Virus record (IMG/VR): IMGVR_UViG_3300027797_000019
Coordinates: 33,024-97,023 of that record
Length of the DNA stretch: 64,000 nucleotides
DNA from: a virus
Reading direction: 5' to 3' (one strand)
Position numbers and translations under genes: made by a program. The number at the start of each line of letters is the position of its first letter. Position 1 is the stretch's first letter. Positions 2 to 7,477 of the stretch are shown here, in pieces. Below the pieces are notes generated by a model. It was not told the DNA's origin, made no database searches, and worked only from the letters and a program-made list of their open reading frames with translations.

Positions 2-1531
2 CAATCTGATCCACAGACACTTATCCAACTTTTACAACTTCTTATTGACAAAATATGTTCTTTAGAAGATCTTATTGATGGAGGTAATGGAGGTGGTAGT
101 GGTTCTGTGAATGTACAGCTTCCTCCTTGTCTTCGTTATACCAACAACGATGGTGACTTTATAGAATACTTAGAGCATACTGCATATAGCAGAAAACTTG
201 CTGCAGAGATATGCACGCTTATTGGAAACATTGCTTCTCATAATACACGTATTACAAATCTTGAAACACGTGTAACAACGTTGGAAAATGGTTCAGGCGG
301 TGGAGGTTCAACTTCTATTACAGTAACTCCACAGTGTACAGGTACTCCGGGTACTCCTACAACCATACAAAATGCTTTTTTGAATTTAGAAGACGAGTTT
401 TGTGATTTAAGAATCGCAACGGGTACAACTTCACAAATTCTTCAGGCACTTGCTAAACAATGTAATAATCTTGGAAGTCAATTCCAGTTATCTGGTAATG
501 GAGTAGCTGTAATGTCTCAGCTACCTGGTTGGGTTAATAATCCTACATCTGTTGCTGATACTATTAATAACATCTGGCTTACACTATGTGACATTAGAGA
601 TCGAGTTGATGATCTTGGTGTAGTAACATCAATTAAGTGTACTGACCTTATTATTGATTTCTTACTAACAGTTAACCAGCAAAGAACAAGTGCTTCACTA
701 ACGTTTGCAGGACTTTCAACAATACCAAGTGGCTTAACAGAGCAATTAGGAACAAGAGTTAGAATCGCTTGGAATAACGGTGCAAACTTTGTGGATGTTC
801 CATTTACTTTAGGAAATTTTGTATCTCCTGATGGTGGTCCATTTGAAATAAATCTTGCGTCATTAAATCCTAACGTTCCTACTGATAAAGACTTAACATT
901 TACAGTCACAACAACTTATACTGGTTCAGGTCTAACTTGTTCTAAAACTGCTATTAAAACCTCAACATTTACTTGTAATAAACCCACTGTTGGAACGGTT
1001 TCATTAGTACAAGCTACAGCTAGTAGTTTAGAAGTAGTTTGGGCAGAACCTACAACCGGAACTACACCAGTTATATCTTATACTGTAACTCTAAAAAATA
1101 ACTCTGGAACAATTACATATCAGACTGCACAGACAACTATAGGTCAGTACTTATTTAGCGGCTTAAATGCTTCTAGTTCTTATAGAGTAGACGTTGTAGT
1201 TAATTACGAGTGTGGTTCTTCAGCTGTAACAAGTGGATTGTTTAGTACTCTTTCCGGTGGTGGTACTACATATTACTATTATCAGGTAGAAAGATGTTGT
1301 GGTGCTAGCCCTACAATTTTGAATGTTAGAAGTAACAGCCAATTAACTGTTAATCAGGGTGTAAATATTTCAGGTTCAGCTAATGCCCCATACGCATGGC
1401 ATGTAATTGGGACATCTTCACAAATTGTTTCAGCTCCTGTAGTACTTGCTGTTCACCCAGATTGTGAAGCTGCAATTGATGATTTAGGAGATCCTTGTGA
1501 TGACGGTGGTGGTAATGGTGGTGTAGTTTAA
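2..1531 (+). CDS. Cys-rich virion surface/head-fibre-like protein with C-terminal FN3 domain (5'-partial)
   Basis: Frame is open from nt 2 (QSDPQTLIQLLQLLIDKICSL...), so the GTG at 107 is probably internal. Repeated helical P-x-T-(L/I)...-C-(D/S)-(L/I) units, short coiled coil (TRITNLETRVTTLE), complete FN3 (TCNKP...LEVVW...YTV...GLNASSSYRVDVVVNYEC). Confidence 0.7.
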   Translation, partial: QSDPQTLIQLLQLLIDKICSLEDLIDGGNGGGSGSVNVQLPPCLRYTNNDGDFIEYLEHTAYSRKLAAEICTLIGNIASHNTRITNLETRVTTLENGSGGGGSTSITVTPQCTGTPGTPTTIQNAFLNLEDEFCDLRIATGTTSQILQALAKQCNNLGSQFQLSGNGVAVMSQLPGWVNNPTSVADTINNIWLTLCDIRDRVDDLGVVTSIKCTDLIIDFLLTVNQQRTSASLTFAGLSTIPSGLTEQLGTRVRIAWNNGANFVDVPFTLGNFVSPDGGPFEINLASLNPNVPTDKDLTFTVTTTYTGSGLTCSKTAIKTSTFTCNKPTVGTVSLVQATASSLEVVWAEPTTGTTPVISYTVTLKNNSGTITYQTAQTTIGQYLFSGLNASSSYRVDVVVNYECGSSAVTSGLFSTLSGGGTTYYYYQVERCCGASPTILNVRSNSQLTVNQGVNISGSANAPYAWHVIGTSSQIVSAPVVLAVHPDCEAAIDDLGDPCDDGGGNGGVV

Positions 1532-1553: not shown

Positions 1554-2438
1554 ATGTACCCTAACGATTATTGTCAACCTTGTCAACAAACAGTACCTCC
1601 GGTTACTGTACCACCTCCTCCAGTATGTGCTGGGGAGCCGTGTGTTGAGTTATATAAAGATGATTGTGTTCTTTATACAGGACCCAATTTTCCATGCTTA
1701 AATGTTACAACAAATGAGCGTCTTGAAAGCGTTTTGATTAAAATCATGACAAAACTTTCTCAGTGCTGTTGTGATGGTACACCTCAACCTGTTGACTGTG
1801 TTGTATCAGAATGGAGTGCTTGGGGTGAATGCATTTGTCCAGATGAAGGCGCCGAAATAGAAATATGTACTCAAACAAGAACTAGAACAGTTATTACACC
1901 AGCATCTAATGGAGGCGATCCTTGTCCTTTACTTATTGAAATAAGAGAATGCTGCCAACCAGTAAACTGTGTAGTATCTCAATGGAGCGAATGGTCTAAC
2001 TGCGTTAATGGCATTCAAACAAGAACAAGAACAGTAGTTACTCCCGCCTCTTGTGGTGGTACTGCTTGTCCTCCACTAGTAGAGACAAGGTCATGTTGTA
2101 CTCCTGTAAACTGTGTTGTATCAGCATGGGGTCCTTGGTCAAATTGTGTTAGCGGAGTTAGAACTAGAACAAGAACTGTTGTTACACCAGCATCATGTGG
2201 TGGAACAGCTTGTCCTGCACTTACAGAAACTCAAGATTGTGATGGGGGTTTACCTGTAGATTGCGTAGTTTCAGATTGGAGTCCTTGGTCTAATTGTGTT
2301 AACGGTGAGCAGACAAGAACTAGAACTGTTGTAACACCTGCTGAAAACGGTGGAGCACCATGTCCAACTTTGATAGAAACAAGAGACTGTATAGGATGTA
2401 CAACACCAACAGGTCTTTCAGTACAAACTTTAGCTTAA
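1554..2438 (+). CDS. Thrombospondin type-1 (spondin-like TSP1) repeat protein, putative virion fibre
   Basis: Four repeats PV(D/N)CVVSxWxxWxxC...(Q/R)TRTRTV(I/V)TPAxxGGxxCPxLxExxxC starting at 1788, 1959, 2103, 2253. N-terminal DCVLYTGPNFPCL...LESVLIKI motif; C-terminal CTTPTGLSV. Confidence 0.85.
   Translation: MYPNDYCQPCQQTVPPVTVPPPPVCAGEPCVELYKDDCVLYTGPNFPCLNVTTNERLESVLIKIMTKLSQCCCDGTPQPVDCVVSEWSAWGECICPDEGAEIEICTQTRTRTVITPASNGGDPCPLLIEIRECCQPVNCVVSQWSEWSNCVNGIQTRTRTVVTPASCGGTACPPLVETRSCCTPVNCVVSAWGPWSNCVSGVRTRTRTVVTPASCGGTACPALTETQDCDGGLPVDCVVSDWSPWSNCVNGEQTRTRTVVTPAENGGAPCPTLIETRDCIGCTTPTGLSVQTLA
1788..2390 (+). repeat. Four tandem TSP1-coding repeats (about 144-171 nt)
   Basis: Repeats 2 and 3 are spaced exactly 144 nt; protein-level WSxWSxC and TRTRTV motifs. 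Confidence 0.9.
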
Positions 2439-2462
2439 ACATAAACATTAAATTATAAAAAC

Positions 2463-3005
2463 ATGCCATCATTTACTTTAAACTGGACCCCTGCGGGTGG
2501 TCAAACAACAACAGCACAACGTGTGCAAAGAAAATCAGGCGGAGGAGCTTTTGCAACAATTGCAACTCTTGGTACTGCAGCTAGTACGTACACAGATACT
2601 AGTGGTTCTGATAACATACTTTATACTTATCAGATTGTTAACGTATGTACTAATGGCGAAGTAGATTCAAGTGACGTTCTTATTTGTAATCCTACTTGTC
2701 CTACAGTTACAGAAGTAGTTAGTGGAACTGGTGTAGAACTTTCTTTCCCTTCACTTTCAGGTAATACTGTTTATACAGGTAATGTTACATTTAGTGGTGG
2801 TATTGCTGCTCAAGCAACTAGTGGCAACGCTAATGGTTTTGCTTTAGGATTTACTGGTGCTTATGGTACAACTTATACATATACTTACACAGTTTCTTGT
2901 GGGGGATTCCAAATTTCATGTTCTGATACAGTTGCTATTTCTAGCCAACCATGTTTGACACCAACTGAACTTTCAGTAATGAATGACGCGGGTTTTGACT
3001 CATAA
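2463..3005 (+). CDS. Tandem FN3-like protein, putative virion fibre subunit
   Basis: FTLNWTP...TYTDT...YTYQIVNVC (FN3 lacking strand A), a second beta-sandwich ending YGTTYTYTYTVSC, C-terminal CLTPTELSV. Confidence 0.7.
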   Translation: MPSFTLNWTPAGGQTTTAQRVQRKSGGGAFATIATLGTAASTYTDTSGSDNILYTYQIVNVCTNGEVDSSDVLICNPTCPTVTEVVSGTGVELSFPSLSGNTVYTGNVTFSGGIAAQATSGNANGFALGFTGAYGTTYTYTYTVSCGGFQISCSDTVAISSQPCLTPTELSVMNDAGFDS

Positions 3006-3023
3006 GATAAAATTTAAAATATT

Positions 3024-3530
3024 ATGGCAACAGTAACATTAACATGGACACCAGCAGGAGGTGCTAACTCTACAAATCAAAGAATTTATAGAGGTTTAGA
3101 TCTTACTGTCTCTACACTGTTAGCAACTGTATCGCCTAGTGTAGCAACTTATACTGATTCAACCGCTCCTGATGGTGCAACTGTTTATTATCGAGTTGCT
3201 AATATCTGCAATAATGGTGGTCCAACTAATAGCACTGTAGTAAGTATAACTACACCCGGTGGCGGAGGTGGTGGCAGTACTGACCCTGTAGAATACTTTA
3301 ACGTTGGATGGGGTGGTGATACAAGTGCTGCATGCAGTATGGCTAATATTGGTGGTAATGTATTCTATACAACGTGTAGAACCGACGAGTTTGGTTCTGG
3401 ATGTCAATTGTATATTGATGGCTCTATGAGTGGACGTCTGCAAGGCTTTACGCATTTATTTGCTAATAACATGAACTGGCTTATTACTACCGAAGGTGTA
3501 GTTATTGGACCAGACGATACTCAGTGTTAA
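3024..3530 (+). CDS. FN3-like protein with Gly linker and Cys-containing C-terminal tip domain
   Basis: VTLTWTPAGG...QRIYR...TYTDST...YYRVANIC, paralogous to the N-terminal domain of 2463..3005; GGGGGG linker. Confidence 0.7.
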   Translation: MATVTLTWTPAGGANSTNQRIYRGLDLTVSTLLATVSPSVATYTDSTAPDGATVYYRVANICNNGGPTNSTVVSITTPGGGGGGSTDPVEYFNVGWGGDTSAACSMANIGGNVFYTTCRTDEFGSGCQLYIDGSMSGRLQGFTHLFANNMNWLITTEGVVIGPDDTQC

Positions 3531-3581: not shown

Positions 3582-3613
3582 GAGACCCCCGGTAGCAATA
3601 CTGGGGGTTCTTG
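3582..3613 (+). terminator. Intrinsic terminator-like hairpin after the FN3/TSP1 cluster
   Basis: ACCCCCGGTA-GCAA-TACTGGGGGT stem with GNRA loop followed by TCTT. Confidence 0.7.
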
Positions 3614-3696: not shown

Positions 3697-5028
3697 ATGA
3701 GTCTAATTTCATCTGTATATCAGAGTTTAAAACGCAAACGCTCTGATCAGGAGAAAGCTGAAAAGATAGGCATTCCCTTAAAAAAATACCTTGCATTAAA
3801 AGAGTTAATAGTTAATGCAATTAGTGAAATTTCTTCTGTAGTTGATAGTCACGTTGTTGATTATTTGCAAGGAAAGTTAGTTGATAAAGTTGAAGAAACA
3901 GCTCTCATTGGTCAATTAAATGAAGAGCTTGGTAAAATTGTCATTGATAAATCAAAGTCTGAAGGAGCTACTATTGTTGAACAGCACGTTGATCTGGAGA
4001 CCGGTACTACAAAAATTACCGGTCTTTTTGCTGCTGAGCCTAGAAGTTCTGAAGAAATAATAGAGCTACTTAATATTGATACACGAAAGTGGAAACTTTC
4101 GCAATACTGGAACAAAGAAAAAAGTGGGCGATGGTATGTGTCAGCACTTGTAAGTAAACTTCCAGAGGAGCAAGTTATACAAAGCACGTTTTTAGAGATT
4201 CTTCAAAATTATGAATTACCGGAAATTCAACCCCTCGACAAGAGTAACATCTTGCTCAATAAATCAGCAGAAGAAAAAGTCTGTGGAGTTTTCTCTCTTC
4301 AAGATCTTCACTTTGGAAAACCAGGAAACGAAAATCTCGGAGAAATTCTTGAAAACTGTGTAAAGTCCTTATTAACAAAGGCTTACAATACATACTACCT
4401 TGATGAAATAATTTTTGTAGTTGGTGGAGATGCTCTAAATATGGACACATTTAACGGTACAACCACAAAGGGGACTATTGTAGAAAATGGGGAAGGTCCT
4501 GTAGAAACCTACATTAAAGCTTTTGACTCTCTTATGCAAACAATTGGGACAATATCTCAATTTTGCAATAAGCTAAAAATAGTATACTTACCAGGTAATC
4601 ATGATAGATTGTCATCATTTCATCTGGTACATGCTTTACAGCAAGGTTTTAAAGATTGGTCAAATATTGATTTTGATAGCGCATATGCTGAAAGAAAAGT
4701 ACACCTATATGGTTTAAATATGTTCTGTTTTGAGCATGGTGATGTGACTACAAAAAACAATCCTTTGGTATATGCGACAGAATTTCCTATTGAATGGGGT
4801 TCTGCATCATTTAGAACTCTCTATGTTGGACATTATCACACAAAGAGGTCAAAGGAATACTTGACAGAAAACGAAGAAAACGGGTTTACAACTCGTCAAC
4901 TTCCAAGTTTGTCATCCTCAGATTATTATCATTACCACAATAAATGGACTGGTAATAAGCGCGCAGGAATTTTAGAACTGCACTGTGAGAAGAAAGGTAA
5001 AGTTTCAGAGTTTGTTTATACACTTTAA
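3697..5028 (+). CDS. Calcineurin-like metallophosphoesterase
   Basis: All five motifs in order: DLHFG, GGDALN, PGNHD, EHGD, GHYH. Confidence 0.85.
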   Translation: MSLISSVYQSLKRKRSDQEKAEKIGIPLKKYLALKELIVNAISEISSVVDSHVVDYLQGKLVDKVEETALIGQLNEELGKIVIDKSKSEGATIVEQHVDLETGTTKITGLFAAEPRSSEEIIELLNIDTRKWKLSQYWNKEKSGRWYVSALVSKLPEEQVIQSTFLEILQNYELPEIQPLDKSNILLNKSAEEKVCGVFSLQDLHFGKPGNENLGEILENCVKSLLTKAYNTYYLDEIIFVVGGDALNMDTFNGTTTKGTIVENGEGPVETYIKAFDSLMQTIGTISQFCNKLKIVYLPGNHDRLSSFHLVHALQQGFKDWSNIDFDSAYAERKVHLYGLNMFCFEHGDVTTKNNPLVYATEFPIEWGSASFRTLYVGHYHTKRSKEYLTENEENGFTTRQLPSLSSSDYYHYHNKWTGNKRAGILELHCEKKGKVSEFVYTL

Positions 5029-5696: not shown

Positions 5697-6371
5697 ATGG
5701 TAACTATTGGAGAAGTAATATCTAGGGTGCGTAATCAAGTTAAGTCGGTAAAGCAAGACGCTTTTTTAACCGACCGTTTTCTTCATTCCCTTATTCGCAA
5801 ATACGCAGCACTAATGATGCGACGTCAGGACAACCTGAATCGCATTATGAAATTTAACTCTGTATTTCAAGCTCTTTCTTTTGTTGAGCTTATTGAAATT
5901 GATAAGATTGAAGCACAATGTCATTGTGTTGAAAGTGGTTGCACATTTAAAAGAACAAAAGATAAAGTACCAGCTTTAATGCAGGGTTACTGGGGTCCTC
6001 TTATGAGGTCGGTTACAAGTATTGATATAAGTGAAGAACTTGTACCAACATTTCCGCACACATTTGAAAAGATTGCAAACCAAAAGACGTTTAAATACAA
6101 TAGGAAAAAATACTATTGGTATTTAGACGGGTATTTGTATTTCCCAAATCTAGAGTGGGATGCTATTAGAATTGAAGGTGTGTTTGAAGAAGACATTAGT
6201 AAATACAATTGCGATATTAAAGATGATTGTTTGTATATGCAGGATCGTGGATTTCATGTTCCTGAATTCCTTTTTGCAGAAATCGAACAGAATGTTGTAA
6301 GAGATCTCGCGGGAATGATTCAGATTCCTTCTGATATTATGCAAGACAACAGACACCTTGCTAGACAATAA
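5697..6371 (+). CDS. Ring / tail tubular (head-tail connector) protein
   Basis: N-terminal TIGEVISRVR helix, YYWYLDGYLYF...IRIEGVFE pattern, crAss synteny (IHF-ring-ring-muzzle). Confidence 0.6.
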   Translation: MVTIGEVISRVRNQVKSVKQDAFLTDRFLHSLIRKYAALMMRRQDNLNRIMKFNSVFQALSFVELIEIDKIEAQCHCVESGCTFKRTKDKVPALMQGYWGPLMRSVTSIDISEELVPTFPHTFEKIANQKTFKYNRKKYYWYLDGYLYFPNLEWDAIRIEGVFEEDISKYNCDIKDDCLYMQDRGFHVPEFLFAEIEQNVVRDLAGMIQIPSDIMQDNRHLARQ

Positions 6372-6382
6372 AACATTAAACG

Positions 6383-7477
6383 ATGCTTACGGAACTTCAA
6401 TATAGGACATTTGACGAGCTTCTGCAGAGCGTTGAGATTGACATGAAAGGTGTCGATAGTCAAGGTTATGTAGAACCACAAGAATTGCTTAAAGTAGCAA
6501 TTAAAGTCAACAGAGAATTAGGTTTAAAAATCAATCCTTCTAGACAGAAGTGTATTGAAATACATAAAGGAAAAGCCAGACTACCTGAAGATTTTAACGT
6601 GTTAAATTTTGCCTTGGTTTGCGAGTCAAGAAATGAGCATCCTATAGTTAGAAAAGAGAAGACTTACAACCAGGGTTTATTAGAGGGTGTTTTAATGGCA
6701 CAGAACATTCTTTCTAGAACAAGTGTTGATCAGTTTACGATTACAATGGATTTACAACCTAATGGTAATCTTATCAGTCATACTCTAAATACAATGGATG
6801 TAATTGTACAAGCACAATTACCTGATGGAACCCTAGCTTCATTTGATTTTTCTACACCAAGTACAGGTGAGATTATTTTAGACAATGATACAGCACAATT
6901 AATTACAGGTGTAAAGATTATCATTATTGGTAAAAAGTCAATTACAAATTTTGGTAGTCAACAACATACTAATCTTAATAATGACGACAATAATCCTTCA
7001 GTTACCTATATCTATAATAACGTAGTTAATACTTATAAAAGATTAGTACCAATTGAAATTAGACCCAGCAGAAAAATTATGAATGACTGCTGGAATCTTA
7101 CTGTAAAAAGTCATTACATAGGTTACTTAGAAAATGGATTTTTCCATGTCAATTTTGACGAGGGTACAATTTATCTAAATTATTCTTCTGTAATGGAGGA
7201 TGACGCGGGTAATCTTTTGGTTTTTGATCACCCTATTGTAAATGAATATTATGAATATGCACTAAAAGAGCGAATCTTTGAGAATATGTTTTTGAGTGGT
7301 GAGTCTTCAGTACAAAACAAATTGCAGTTTATATCTCAGAAATTGAGAATGTCAAGAAATAATGCATTTAGTTATGTAAATACTCCTGACTTTAATGAGT
7401 TGAAGCGCGTTTGGGAAATGAATAGAAAAGCGCAATACCACAACTACTACAACATGTTTAAGAGCAATATACGATGA
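6383..7477 (+). CDS. Ring / tail tubular protein with inserted beta-sandwich domain
   Basis: KARLPEDF and YLENGFFHVNFDEGTIYLNY...DDAGNLLVFD motifs typical of crAss tubular proteins; synteny. Confidence 0.65.
   Translation: MLTELQYRTFDELLQSVEIDMKGVDSQGYVEPQELLKVAIKVNRELGLKINPSRQKCIEIHKGKARLPEDFNVLNFALVCESRNEHPIVRKEKTYNQGLLEGVLMAQNILSRTSVDQFTITMDLQPNGNLISHTLNTMDVIVQAQLPDGTLASFDFSTPSTGEIILDNDTAQLITGVKIIIIGKKSITNFGSQQHTNLNNDDNNPSVTYIYNNVVNTYKRLVPIEIRPSRKIMNDCWNLTVKSHYIGYLENGFFHVNFDEGTIYLNYSSVMEDDAGNLLVFDHPIVNEYYEYALKERIFENMFLSGESSVQNKLQFISQKLRMSRNNAFSYVNTPDFNELKRVWEMNRKAQYHNYYNMFKSNIR

What the first reader, a model, noticed from the sequence alone, without database searches (positions are those of the whole stretch)
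1554..3530. FN3 domains split across genes: candidate donor-strand-complemented, disulfide-locked pilus-like phage filament
Seen: ORF 1554 ends CTTPTGLSVQTLA* (2397-2438) and ORF 2463 ends PCLTPTELSVMNDAGFDS* (from 2949). Both look like an FN3 first strand (C-x-x-P-T-x-L-S-V). The next genes begin directly at FN3 strand B (MPSFTLNWTPAGG, MATVTLTWTPAGG) and keep a Cys at the end of strand F (YQIVNVC at 2646, YRVANIC at 3207). The intact FN3 in the upstream gene has both Cys in cis (TCNKP at 974 ... VNYEC at 1211). Each spacer holds a second in-frame TAA, so these are separate proteins. Inference: the A strand is donated in trans and probably disulfide-bonded to the F-strand Cys of the next subunit. 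The roles read like a pilus: base with donor only (TSP1 protein), shaft with acceptor plus donor (2463, able to self-polymerise), and tip cap with acceptor only plus a distinct C-terminal domain (3024). Donor-strand exchange is established for chaperone-usher and Bacteroidota type V pili; I know of no FN3-based phage version.
Basis: partly seen in the sequence, partly recalled or inferred. Interest (0 to 1): 0.88.

Follow-up and report, generated by a model that had tools for sequence, protein, structure and literature searches.

The report
Phage fibre joined by split FN3 domains
In this crAss-like phage, three neighbouring fibre genes are cut exactly inside a fibronectin-type-III domain, so each protein's tail strand most likely completes the first domain of the next protein and plugs the three together end to end, a joining principle known from bacterial pili but not yet described for a phage fibre.

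Summary
Genes 1554-2438, 2463-3005 and 3024-3530 are separate. Two of them end with an FN3 strand A. Two of them begin at strand B.

In the 97-kb record, only these three genes carry either motif. About 16 distinct junctions in 22 related loci keep the same cut. Identity falls to 36%, and spacer length (3-59 nt) and frame vary, so read-through and assembly error are excluded.

An HMM built from 421 uncut FN3 units matches each acceptor only from position 21-23. Adding the upstream tail moves the match to position 6-8 and adds 8.3 bits, against 0.7 bits for a shuffled tail.

AlphaFold2 models the middle protein alone as an FN3 without strand A, with its tail pointing away. A read-through construct models three complete FN3 domains, with each tail in the strand-A position.

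Both cysteines are present at every split junction examined. They never occur together in 2,040 uncut cellular units.

The best reading is a three-protein fibre (base, shaft, tip) joined by donor-strand completion and probably locked by disulfides. This rests on computation only.

Self-polymerisation and the disulfide were not tested. I found no published phage precedent.

The parts
2..1531 (+). Upstream fibre protein (5' end outside the window; 580 aa in the full record). It has a coiled-coil-like segment and an intact FN3 with both Cys in cis (974, 1211). It serves as context and as a cis comparison and is not part of the chain.
   Evidence: Pfam fn3 E 8e-8 at aa 329-406. Its N-terminal module is homologous to that of the TSP1 protein (E 7e-7).
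1554..2438 (+). Base subunit (294 aa): a Cys-rich N-terminal module shared with the upstream fibre protein, four TSP1 repeats, and a C-terminal donor strand. It has a donor only.
   Evidence: Pfam TSP1_spondin E 1.3e-43, four stretches. Relatives of 283-560 aa keep the same end.
2397..2435 (+). Donor strand 1: a Cys followed by FN3 strand A, the last 13 residues of the base subunit.
   Evidence: It forms a strand (residues 55-61 of P0018) in the strand-A position of the next protein's FN3 in the read-through model. Adding it extends the HMM match from position 23 to position 7, +9.1 bits.
2439..2462 (+). Spacer 1: 24 nt, A-rich, with stops in all three frames.
   Evidence: Relatives have 23-32 nt at this junction, often out of frame.
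2463..3005 (+). Shaft subunit (180 aa): an FN3 lacking strand A (aa 1-76, orphan Cys62 at 2646), a complete FN3 (aa 77-160), and donor strand 2. It has both an acceptor and a donor.
   Evidence: AF2 pLDDT 90.4 with strands B, C, C', E, F and G only. Tandem-FN3 fold. FN3 targets align starting 10-15 residues into the chain.
2949..3002 (+). Donor strand 2: Cys164 at 2952 followed by strand A and a short tail.
   Evidence: P163, C164 and P167 are invariant and L170 nearly so in 11 homologues. It forms a strand (residues 240-246 of P0018) in the read-through model. Three-FN3 chains align over model residues 50-338.
3006..3023 (+). Spacer 2: 18 nt, with a second in-frame TAA.
3024..3530 (+). Tip subunit (168 aa): an FN3 lacking strand A (aa 1-78, Cys62 at 3207), a Gly linker, and a C-terminal domain of unknown fold with four Cys. 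It has an acceptor only.
   Evidence: There is no Pfam hit, only weak PHROG hits and no Atlas lead for the C-terminal domain.
3584..3609 (+). Terminator-like hairpin (11-bp stem) after the tip gene. None lies between the fibre genes on this strand.

Best explanation
The three genes encode the base, shaft and tip of one thin fibre of a crAss-like phage. Each subunit boundary lies in the A-B turn of a bacterial-type FN3 domain.

The proximal protein ends with strand A, preceded by a Cys. The distal protein starts at strand B, and its first FN3 lacks strand A. On assembly, the C-terminal strand of the proximal subunit pairs with strand B of the distal subunit and completes its sandwich. This is donor-strand completion. 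The result is a continuous string: TSP1 x4, then FN3 (split), FN3, FN3 (split), then the tip domain.

The donor Cys and the orphan Cys at the end of strand F probably form a disulfide that makes the joint covalent once the virion is outside the cell. The tip's C-terminal domain is the likely binding module.

The conserved plug and socket would let tips and bases be exchanged by recombination.

What is shown: the anatomy, its conservation, its colinearity with uncut domains, and compatibility in a model. What is inferred: trans pairing in the virion, the disulfide, the order of subunits, and the function of the tip.
For: 1. Separate genes. There are two in-frame TAA per spacer. In relatives the spacers are 3-59 nt, in frame or not, and often have stops in all frames.

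2. A conserved cut. Eleven homologues of 177-185 aa at 36-95% identity share the same start and the same tail. M1, L6, W8, T9, P10, C62, P163, C164 and P167 are invariant.

3. Strict adjacency. Every donor-ended gene is followed by an acceptor-started gene, in about 16 distinct junctions. In the own 97-kb record there are exactly 2 donors and 2 acceptors among 151 ORFs.

4. Colinearity with uncut units. Against an HMM of 421 uncut units, the twelve acceptors that match it clearly align from position 21-23, and tail plus acceptor from position 6-8. The four divergent acceptor types score under 7 bits alone, and three of the four gain 6-10 bits with the tail. The mean gain is +8.3 bits over all 16 junctions, against +0.7 for a shuffled tail. 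In 198 two-domain matches in giant proteins, the tail region runs straight into the next strand B.

5. Models. The shaft alone gives pLDDT 90.4, has no strand A, and has a coil tail. Against PelI 3b8y_A it aligns to chain residues 30-106 (74 aa, Z 11.2) when alone, but to chain residues 20-106 (84 aa, Z 13.5, rmsd 1.7) in the read-through model. In that model, whole FN3 chains align 91 of 92 aa at rmsd 2.1 (5n48_B), and three-FN3 chains align 254 aa (6xax_B).

6. Cysteines. Both are present in 16 of 16 split units. They co-occur in 0 of 2,040 uncut cellular units. Crassvirus virions do carry inter-subunit disulfides (PMC10172136).

7. No close fused homologue was found.
Against: There is no experiment and no true multimer prediction.

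The read-through model ties the chains together with 6-9-residue linkers, so AlphaFold could complete the fold simply because the strand is adjacent. Donor pLDDT is only about 66-72. The 3024 part had a shallow alignment, and its C-terminal domain is below pLDDT 50.

Donor sequences look generic, so nothing yet explains an ordered assembly. Some relatives have more acceptors than donors (L003, L010, L018-L021).

The phage is known only from metagenomes, and the record is 81% complete.
Confidence: 0.62

Rival explanations
1. Pilus-like homopolymer. The 180-aa protein, which has both a socket and a plug, polymerises head to tail into a shaft of variable length. The TSP1 protein starts the shaft and the 168-aa protein caps it.
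For: The two donors are near-identical in the strand itself, and the two acceptors are about 40% identical, so no specificity is visible. Distant relatives encode a 103-105-aa protein that is just one A-less FN3 plus a tail, a minimal pilin-like unit.
Against: Nothing tests it. The own record has equal numbers of donors and acceptors, and the genes are tightly coupled, which fits 1:1:1. No chaperone or usher-like control is encoded.
Confidence: 0.15
2. Relic of gene fission. The tails are leftovers of an older fused FN3 array. The A-less domains are stable alone, and the proteins either attach by other surfaces or act separately.
For: Uncut arrays of the same FN3 subtype are abundant: 8,381 hits, with giant proteins of up to 46 repeats. 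AF2 gives the A-less domain high confidence on its own.
Against: The tail holds three of the few invariant residues in the C-terminal half, at 36% overall identity. The cut is at the same turn in every junction. Donor and acceptor are always adjacent. An orphan Cys is kept on both sides.
Confidence: 0.15
3. One polyprotein. Stop-codon read-through, ribosome hopping or frameshifting joins the three ORFs, which are all in one frame in this window.
For: The same frame is kept across both junctions here, and across four junctions in L019-L021, where spacers are 3-9 nt.
Against: There are two in-frame TAA per spacer here, and stops in all three frames in spacer 1. The junctions are out of frame in L001 (junction 1), L003, L004, L008, L009 and L011, with spacers of 19-38 nt. 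The rest of the genome reads well under table 11.
Confidence: 0.04
4. Cis closure. The 180-aa protein's own tail folds back to complete its own first domain.
For: It carries both parts.
Against: In the AF2 monomer the tail is coil. It aligns with the start of a third FN3 in three-domain chains, so it points away. The donor-only and acceptor-only proteins cannot be satisfied in cis.
Confidence: 0.03

Closest known systems
Bacteroidota type V pili (FimA/Mfa1 type)
   Same: The socket is made by the absence of an N-terminal strand, and it is filled by a C-terminal strand of another subunit. Base, shaft and tip roles follow from which parts a subunit has. Crass-like phages infect Bacteroidota. (This comparison is from my own knowledge of the field.)
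   Different: In pili, the N-terminal strand is removed by a protease in the periplasm. Here the gene simply starts after it. The fold here is FN3, not the pilin fold, and there is no lipoprotein export. No FimA family match was found in the record.
Chaperone-usher pili (donor-strand complementation and exchange)
   Same: An incomplete Ig-like sandwich is completed by a strand from the neighbouring subunit. The tip adhesin has a socket only.
   Different: In those pili, the missing strand is the C-terminal G strand and the donor is an N-terminal extension. They also need a chaperone and an usher, and neither is present here.
Chain-like fibres of podophages GP4, VP1 and A1002
   Same: Phage fibres are built from several small proteins held by beta-sheet augmentation (PMC13730344).
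   Different: There, fibre dimers add strands to a separate rope protein. No single domain is divided between two genes, and the fold is not FN3.
Strand-swapped FN3 scaffold (Tencon, PDB 4m6a) and engineered split Ig-like tags such as SpyTag/SpyCatcher
   Same: The N-terminal strand of an FN3 can be supplied by another chain (title of 4m6a). In the engineered tags, a strand peptide completes an Ig-like domain and is then locked covalently.
   Different: Those are laboratory artefacts or designs, whereas this would be natural. It would be encoded as neighbouring genes and locked, if at all, by a disulfide and not an isopeptide.
Crassvirus fibres of PhiCrAss001 (gp21, gp22, gp29)
   Same: The virus order and the genome neighbourhood are the same, between capsid genes and tail ring genes. 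Fibres are anchored by short N-terminal segments, and the virions are disulfide-stabilised (PMC10172136).
   Different: No sequence similarity was found. The distal fibre parts of crAss001 are unresolved, and no split domain has been reported.

Membership tests
Fibronectin type III domain (Pfam PF00041 / FN3 fold) | Seven-strand sandwich (A, B, C, C', E, F, G) recognisable by sequence profile | tested here: inconclusive
   Pfam fn3 does not reach its threshold on the 180- or 168-aa proteins. An HMM of 421 related uncut units does match them at 37-53 bits, but only from position 21-23.
Fibronectin type III domain (Pfam PF00041 / FN3 fold) | FN3 fold by structure comparison | tested here: met
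   By Foldseek, the best hits are tandem FN3 pairs, E 4e-5. By VIA-align, Z is 10-11 with strands B-G only when the protein is alone, and Z is 12.5-13.5 with the whole domain once the upstream tail is present.
Donor-strand-complemented fibres in general (working principle) | The subunit's sandwich lacks one strand | tested here: met
   Strand A is absent in sequence and in the model.
Donor-strand-complemented fibres in general (working principle) | A strand from the neighbouring subunit fills the gap | tested here: inconclusive
   This is seen only in a covalently linked read-through model.
Chaperone-usher pili | PapD-like chaperone and usher encoded alongside | tested here: not met
   No PF00345 or PF00577 match in the 97-kb record, and the controls responded. 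The record is 81% complete.
Type V pili | FimA-type pilin fold or family | tested here: not met
   No PF06321 match. The fold here is FN3.
Crassvirales | Tail ring proteins R1 and R2 and the typical gene order | tested here: met
   CrAss_Ring_2 E 1.3e-22 at 5697-6371 and CrAss_Ring_1 E 3e-9 at 6383-7477. Giant downstream genes follow.

The most novel reading that the evidence does not exclude
A natural 'plug and socket' built from a split FN3 domain. A 10-15-residue C-terminal strand docks into an A-less FN3 on another protein and is then fixed by a disulfide. Environmental crAss-like phages would use it to build fibres from interchangeable base, shaft and tip genes. Some lineages would use alternative tips that compete for one plug, or minimal 103-aa subunits that polymerise. 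This would be the first donor-strand-completed appendage of a virus, and a ready-made protein-ligation pair.
Probability: 0.3. Interest if true: 0.85.

Novelty: new variant of a known kind. Interest (0 to 1): 0.72.

Why it matters
It would show how a phage can assemble a long, thin fibre from small genes. It would also explain the conserved gene boundary as a universal joint that lets receptor-binding tips be swapped by recombination.

It would extend donor-strand completion from bacterial and archaeal pili to viruses. In this case no chaperone, usher or protease is needed, because the gene itself leaves the strand out.

A short natural peptide that completes and covalently locks an FN3 domain could also serve as a protein-coupling tool.

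The three proteins are small and can be expressed, so the claim can be tested directly.

Tried and rejected

**Searches that found nothing**
- Megablast and tblastn against GenBank phages gave no match.
- A profile of the 180-aa family against PDB sequences gave no hit.
- BLASTP of the intact upstream FN3 against the read-through protein gave nothing significant, so these FN3 are too divergent for pairwise search.
- PHROGs gave no family for the fibre proteins.
- The Atlas features search on the tip C-terminal domain gave only unnamed viral clusters at 0.80-0.84, which is at noise level.
- Literature searches for donor strand, strand complementation or strand swap together with phage fibres and FN3 found no precedent.

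**A failed alignment**
- The first block alignment (A2) was misaligned by MAFFT because the two acceptor domains are homologous. I discarded it and built A4 from natural read-through rows instead.

**Readings rejected**
- Read-through or recoding, because frames and spacers vary.
- Assembly error, because the same cut occurs in more than 20 independent contigs.
- Recent decay, because the cut is kept at 36% identity.
- A mini-intron, because the spacers are only 3-59 nt.

Full report
**What is there.** The window belongs to a crAss-like phage. Pfam finds tail ring proteins R2 (5697-6371, E 1.3e-22) and R1 (6383-7477, E 3e-9), followed by the usual giant genes. The record is an IMG/VR contig of 97,023 bp, linear, with a CheckV estimate of 81% complete. 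No GenBank phage is similar.

Upstream of the ring genes lie four fibre-like genes:
- ORF 2-1531 has a coiled-coil-like segment and an intact FN3.
- ORF 1554-2438 has a Cys-rich N-terminal module and four TSP1 repeats (E 1.3e-43).
- ORF 2463-3005 encodes 180 aa.
- ORF 3024-3530 encodes 168 aa.

A terminator-like hairpin follows at 3584-3609. Spacer 1 also has stops in the other two frames.

**The cut is specific and conserved.** In the whole record, a pattern scan of 151 ATG-ORFs found a strand-A-like end in only two genes and a strand-B start in only two genes. These are the three genes in question, and they are consecutive.

The 180-aa protein has eleven homologues of 177-185 aa at 36-95% identity. 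All of them start and end at the same points. The invariant residues include M1, L6, W8, T9 and P10 at the start, Cys62, and P163, C164 and P167 in the tail.

I fetched 22 related loci from IMG/VR and from metagenomes. In every one, a gene that ends with the donor motif is followed by a gene that starts at strand B. That gives about 16 distinct junctions. Spacers range from 3 to 59 nt, in frame or out of frame, and several have stops in all three frames. So these are separate genes. Read-through, assembly error and recent decay are all excluded.

A search among longer proteins found no close fused form. It returned only generic cellular FN3 proteins at 41% identity or less.

**Donor plus acceptor equals one ordinary FN3.** A profile of the 180-aa family finds 8,381 proteins. 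The best hits are giant proteins carrying up to 46 uncut copies of the same FN3 subtype. I built an HMM from 421 complete uncut units and used it as follows:
- The twelve phage acceptors that match this HMM clearly do so only from position 21-23. The four divergent acceptor types score under 7 bits alone.
- Placing the upstream gene's tail in front of the acceptor moves the start to position 6-8.
- This adds 8.3 bits on average over all 16 junctions, against 0.7 bits for a shuffled tail.
- The initiator Met falls in the A-B turn.

In 198 two-domain matches inside giant proteins, the segment equivalent to the phage tail runs directly into the next strand B. The phage gene boundary is therefore a cut in the A-B turn of a tandem FN3 array.

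**Models.** AlphaFold2 on the 180-aa family gives pLDDT 90.4. The model has strands B, C, C', E, F and G, then a complete second sandwich, then a coil tail. Foldseek identifies the fold as tandem FN3. In VIA-align, FN3 chains match the first domain only from 10-15 residues into the chain. For example, PelI 3b8y_A aligns at chain residues 30-106 (74 aa, Z 11.2). The tail aligns with the start of a third FN3 in three-domain chains, so it points away from its own first domain.

I therefore folded a read-through construct, window 2247-3527 with TAA read as Gly. Its alignment was built from natural read-through rows and family members.

In this model both tails become strands (residues 55-61 and 240-246). 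The same PDB chains now align from their first strand:
- 3b8y_A aligns at chain residues 20-106 (84 aa, rmsd 1.7, Z 13.5).
- 5n48_B aligns 91 of 92 aa at rmsd 2.1.
- Three-FN3 chains align over model residues 50-338 (6xax_B, 254 aa).

This shows that the parts fit together as one domain. It does not prove trans pairing. The chains were tied together by linkers, and donor confidence is moderate (pLDDT about 66-72).

**Cysteines.** Every split unit examined (16 of 16) has a Cys three residues before the Pro-Thr that opens strand A, and a Cys at the end of strand F. The phage's uncut FN3 units have both as well. In 2,040 uncut units of the giant proteins, the two never occur together; there are 2 and 99 single occurrences respectively. 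In the shaft and tip proteins, Cys62 has no conserved partner within its own FN3 domain. An inter-subunit disulfide is therefore a reasonable inference. Crassvirus virions are known to contain such bonds (PMC10172136). No distance could be measured here.

**Mechanism proposed.** The base subunit has an N-terminal module shared with the upstream fibre protein and so is probably the attachment end. It continues with four TSP1 repeats and a plug. The shaft has a socket, one FN3 and a plug. The tip has a socket and an unknown C-terminal domain. Two plugs and two sockets in the record fit a 1:1:1 chain. The tight, terminator-free gene spacing fits coupled synthesis.

Relatives vary the bases (283-560 aa, with extra uncut FN3 units) and the tips (168-, 178- and 255-263-aa families) around the same joint. 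This suggests module exchange at the joint. Whether the fibre sits on the head or on the tail hub cannot be told from sequence.

**Comparison with known systems.** The principle is donor-strand completion, as in pili. The polarity (N-terminal strand missing, C-terminal donor) is that of Bacteroidota type V pili and not of chaperone-usher pili. No pilin, chaperone or usher family is present, so this is not a member of those families. Phage chain-like fibres use beta-augmentation onto a rope protein (PMC13730344), but no domain is divided between genes there. An engineered FN3 can swap its N-terminal strand (PDB 4m6a). My literature searches found no phage fibre built on a split FN3.

**Verdict.** The disulfide is plausible, and polymerisation remains open. 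I class it as a new variant of a known principle, and it can be tested directly at the bench.

Noticed in passing
window 1788-2396: Four spondin-type thrombospondin-1 repeats (Pfam PF19028, E 1.3e-43) sit in a phage fibre protein. Relatives carry two to five of them, mixed with uncut FN3 units.
   Followed up: partly
window 1554-1790 and L001 2537-2860: The two fibre proteins share a Cys-rich N-terminal module (BLASTP E 7e-7). The same module heads the 407- and 498-aa donor-ended proteins of distant loci. It is probably the attachment end.
   Followed up: partly
L003 7573-8881; L010 678-1494: Two acceptor-only genes (178 aa and about 255 aa) lie in a row after a single donor-ended shaft gene. 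They may be alternative tips competing for one plug.
   Followed up: no
L019 678-4571 (also L018, L020, L021): These loci have a different gene order. They encode a 103-105-aa protein that is one A-less FN3 plus a tail, and an anchor protein whose donor end is only 3 nt from the next gene. In L019-L021 five consecutive genes share one frame, and the first acceptor has no adjacent donor.
   Followed up: partly
window 3697-5028: A 443-aa protein matches phrog_704 'DNA repair exonuclease' (E 8e-45) and weakly matches Metallophos. It sits where crAss001 has its tail hub genes.
   Followed up: no
L015 1136-1194: This is the only junction with a long (59-nt) spacer. The spacer holds a GC-rich hairpin that looks like a terminator, placed between the donor gene and the acceptor gene.
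   Followed up: no
window 2439-2462: The spacer carries stop codons in all three frames. L003 and L009 have a repeated CTTAA motif at the same junction that also gives stops in all three frames.
   Followed up: partly
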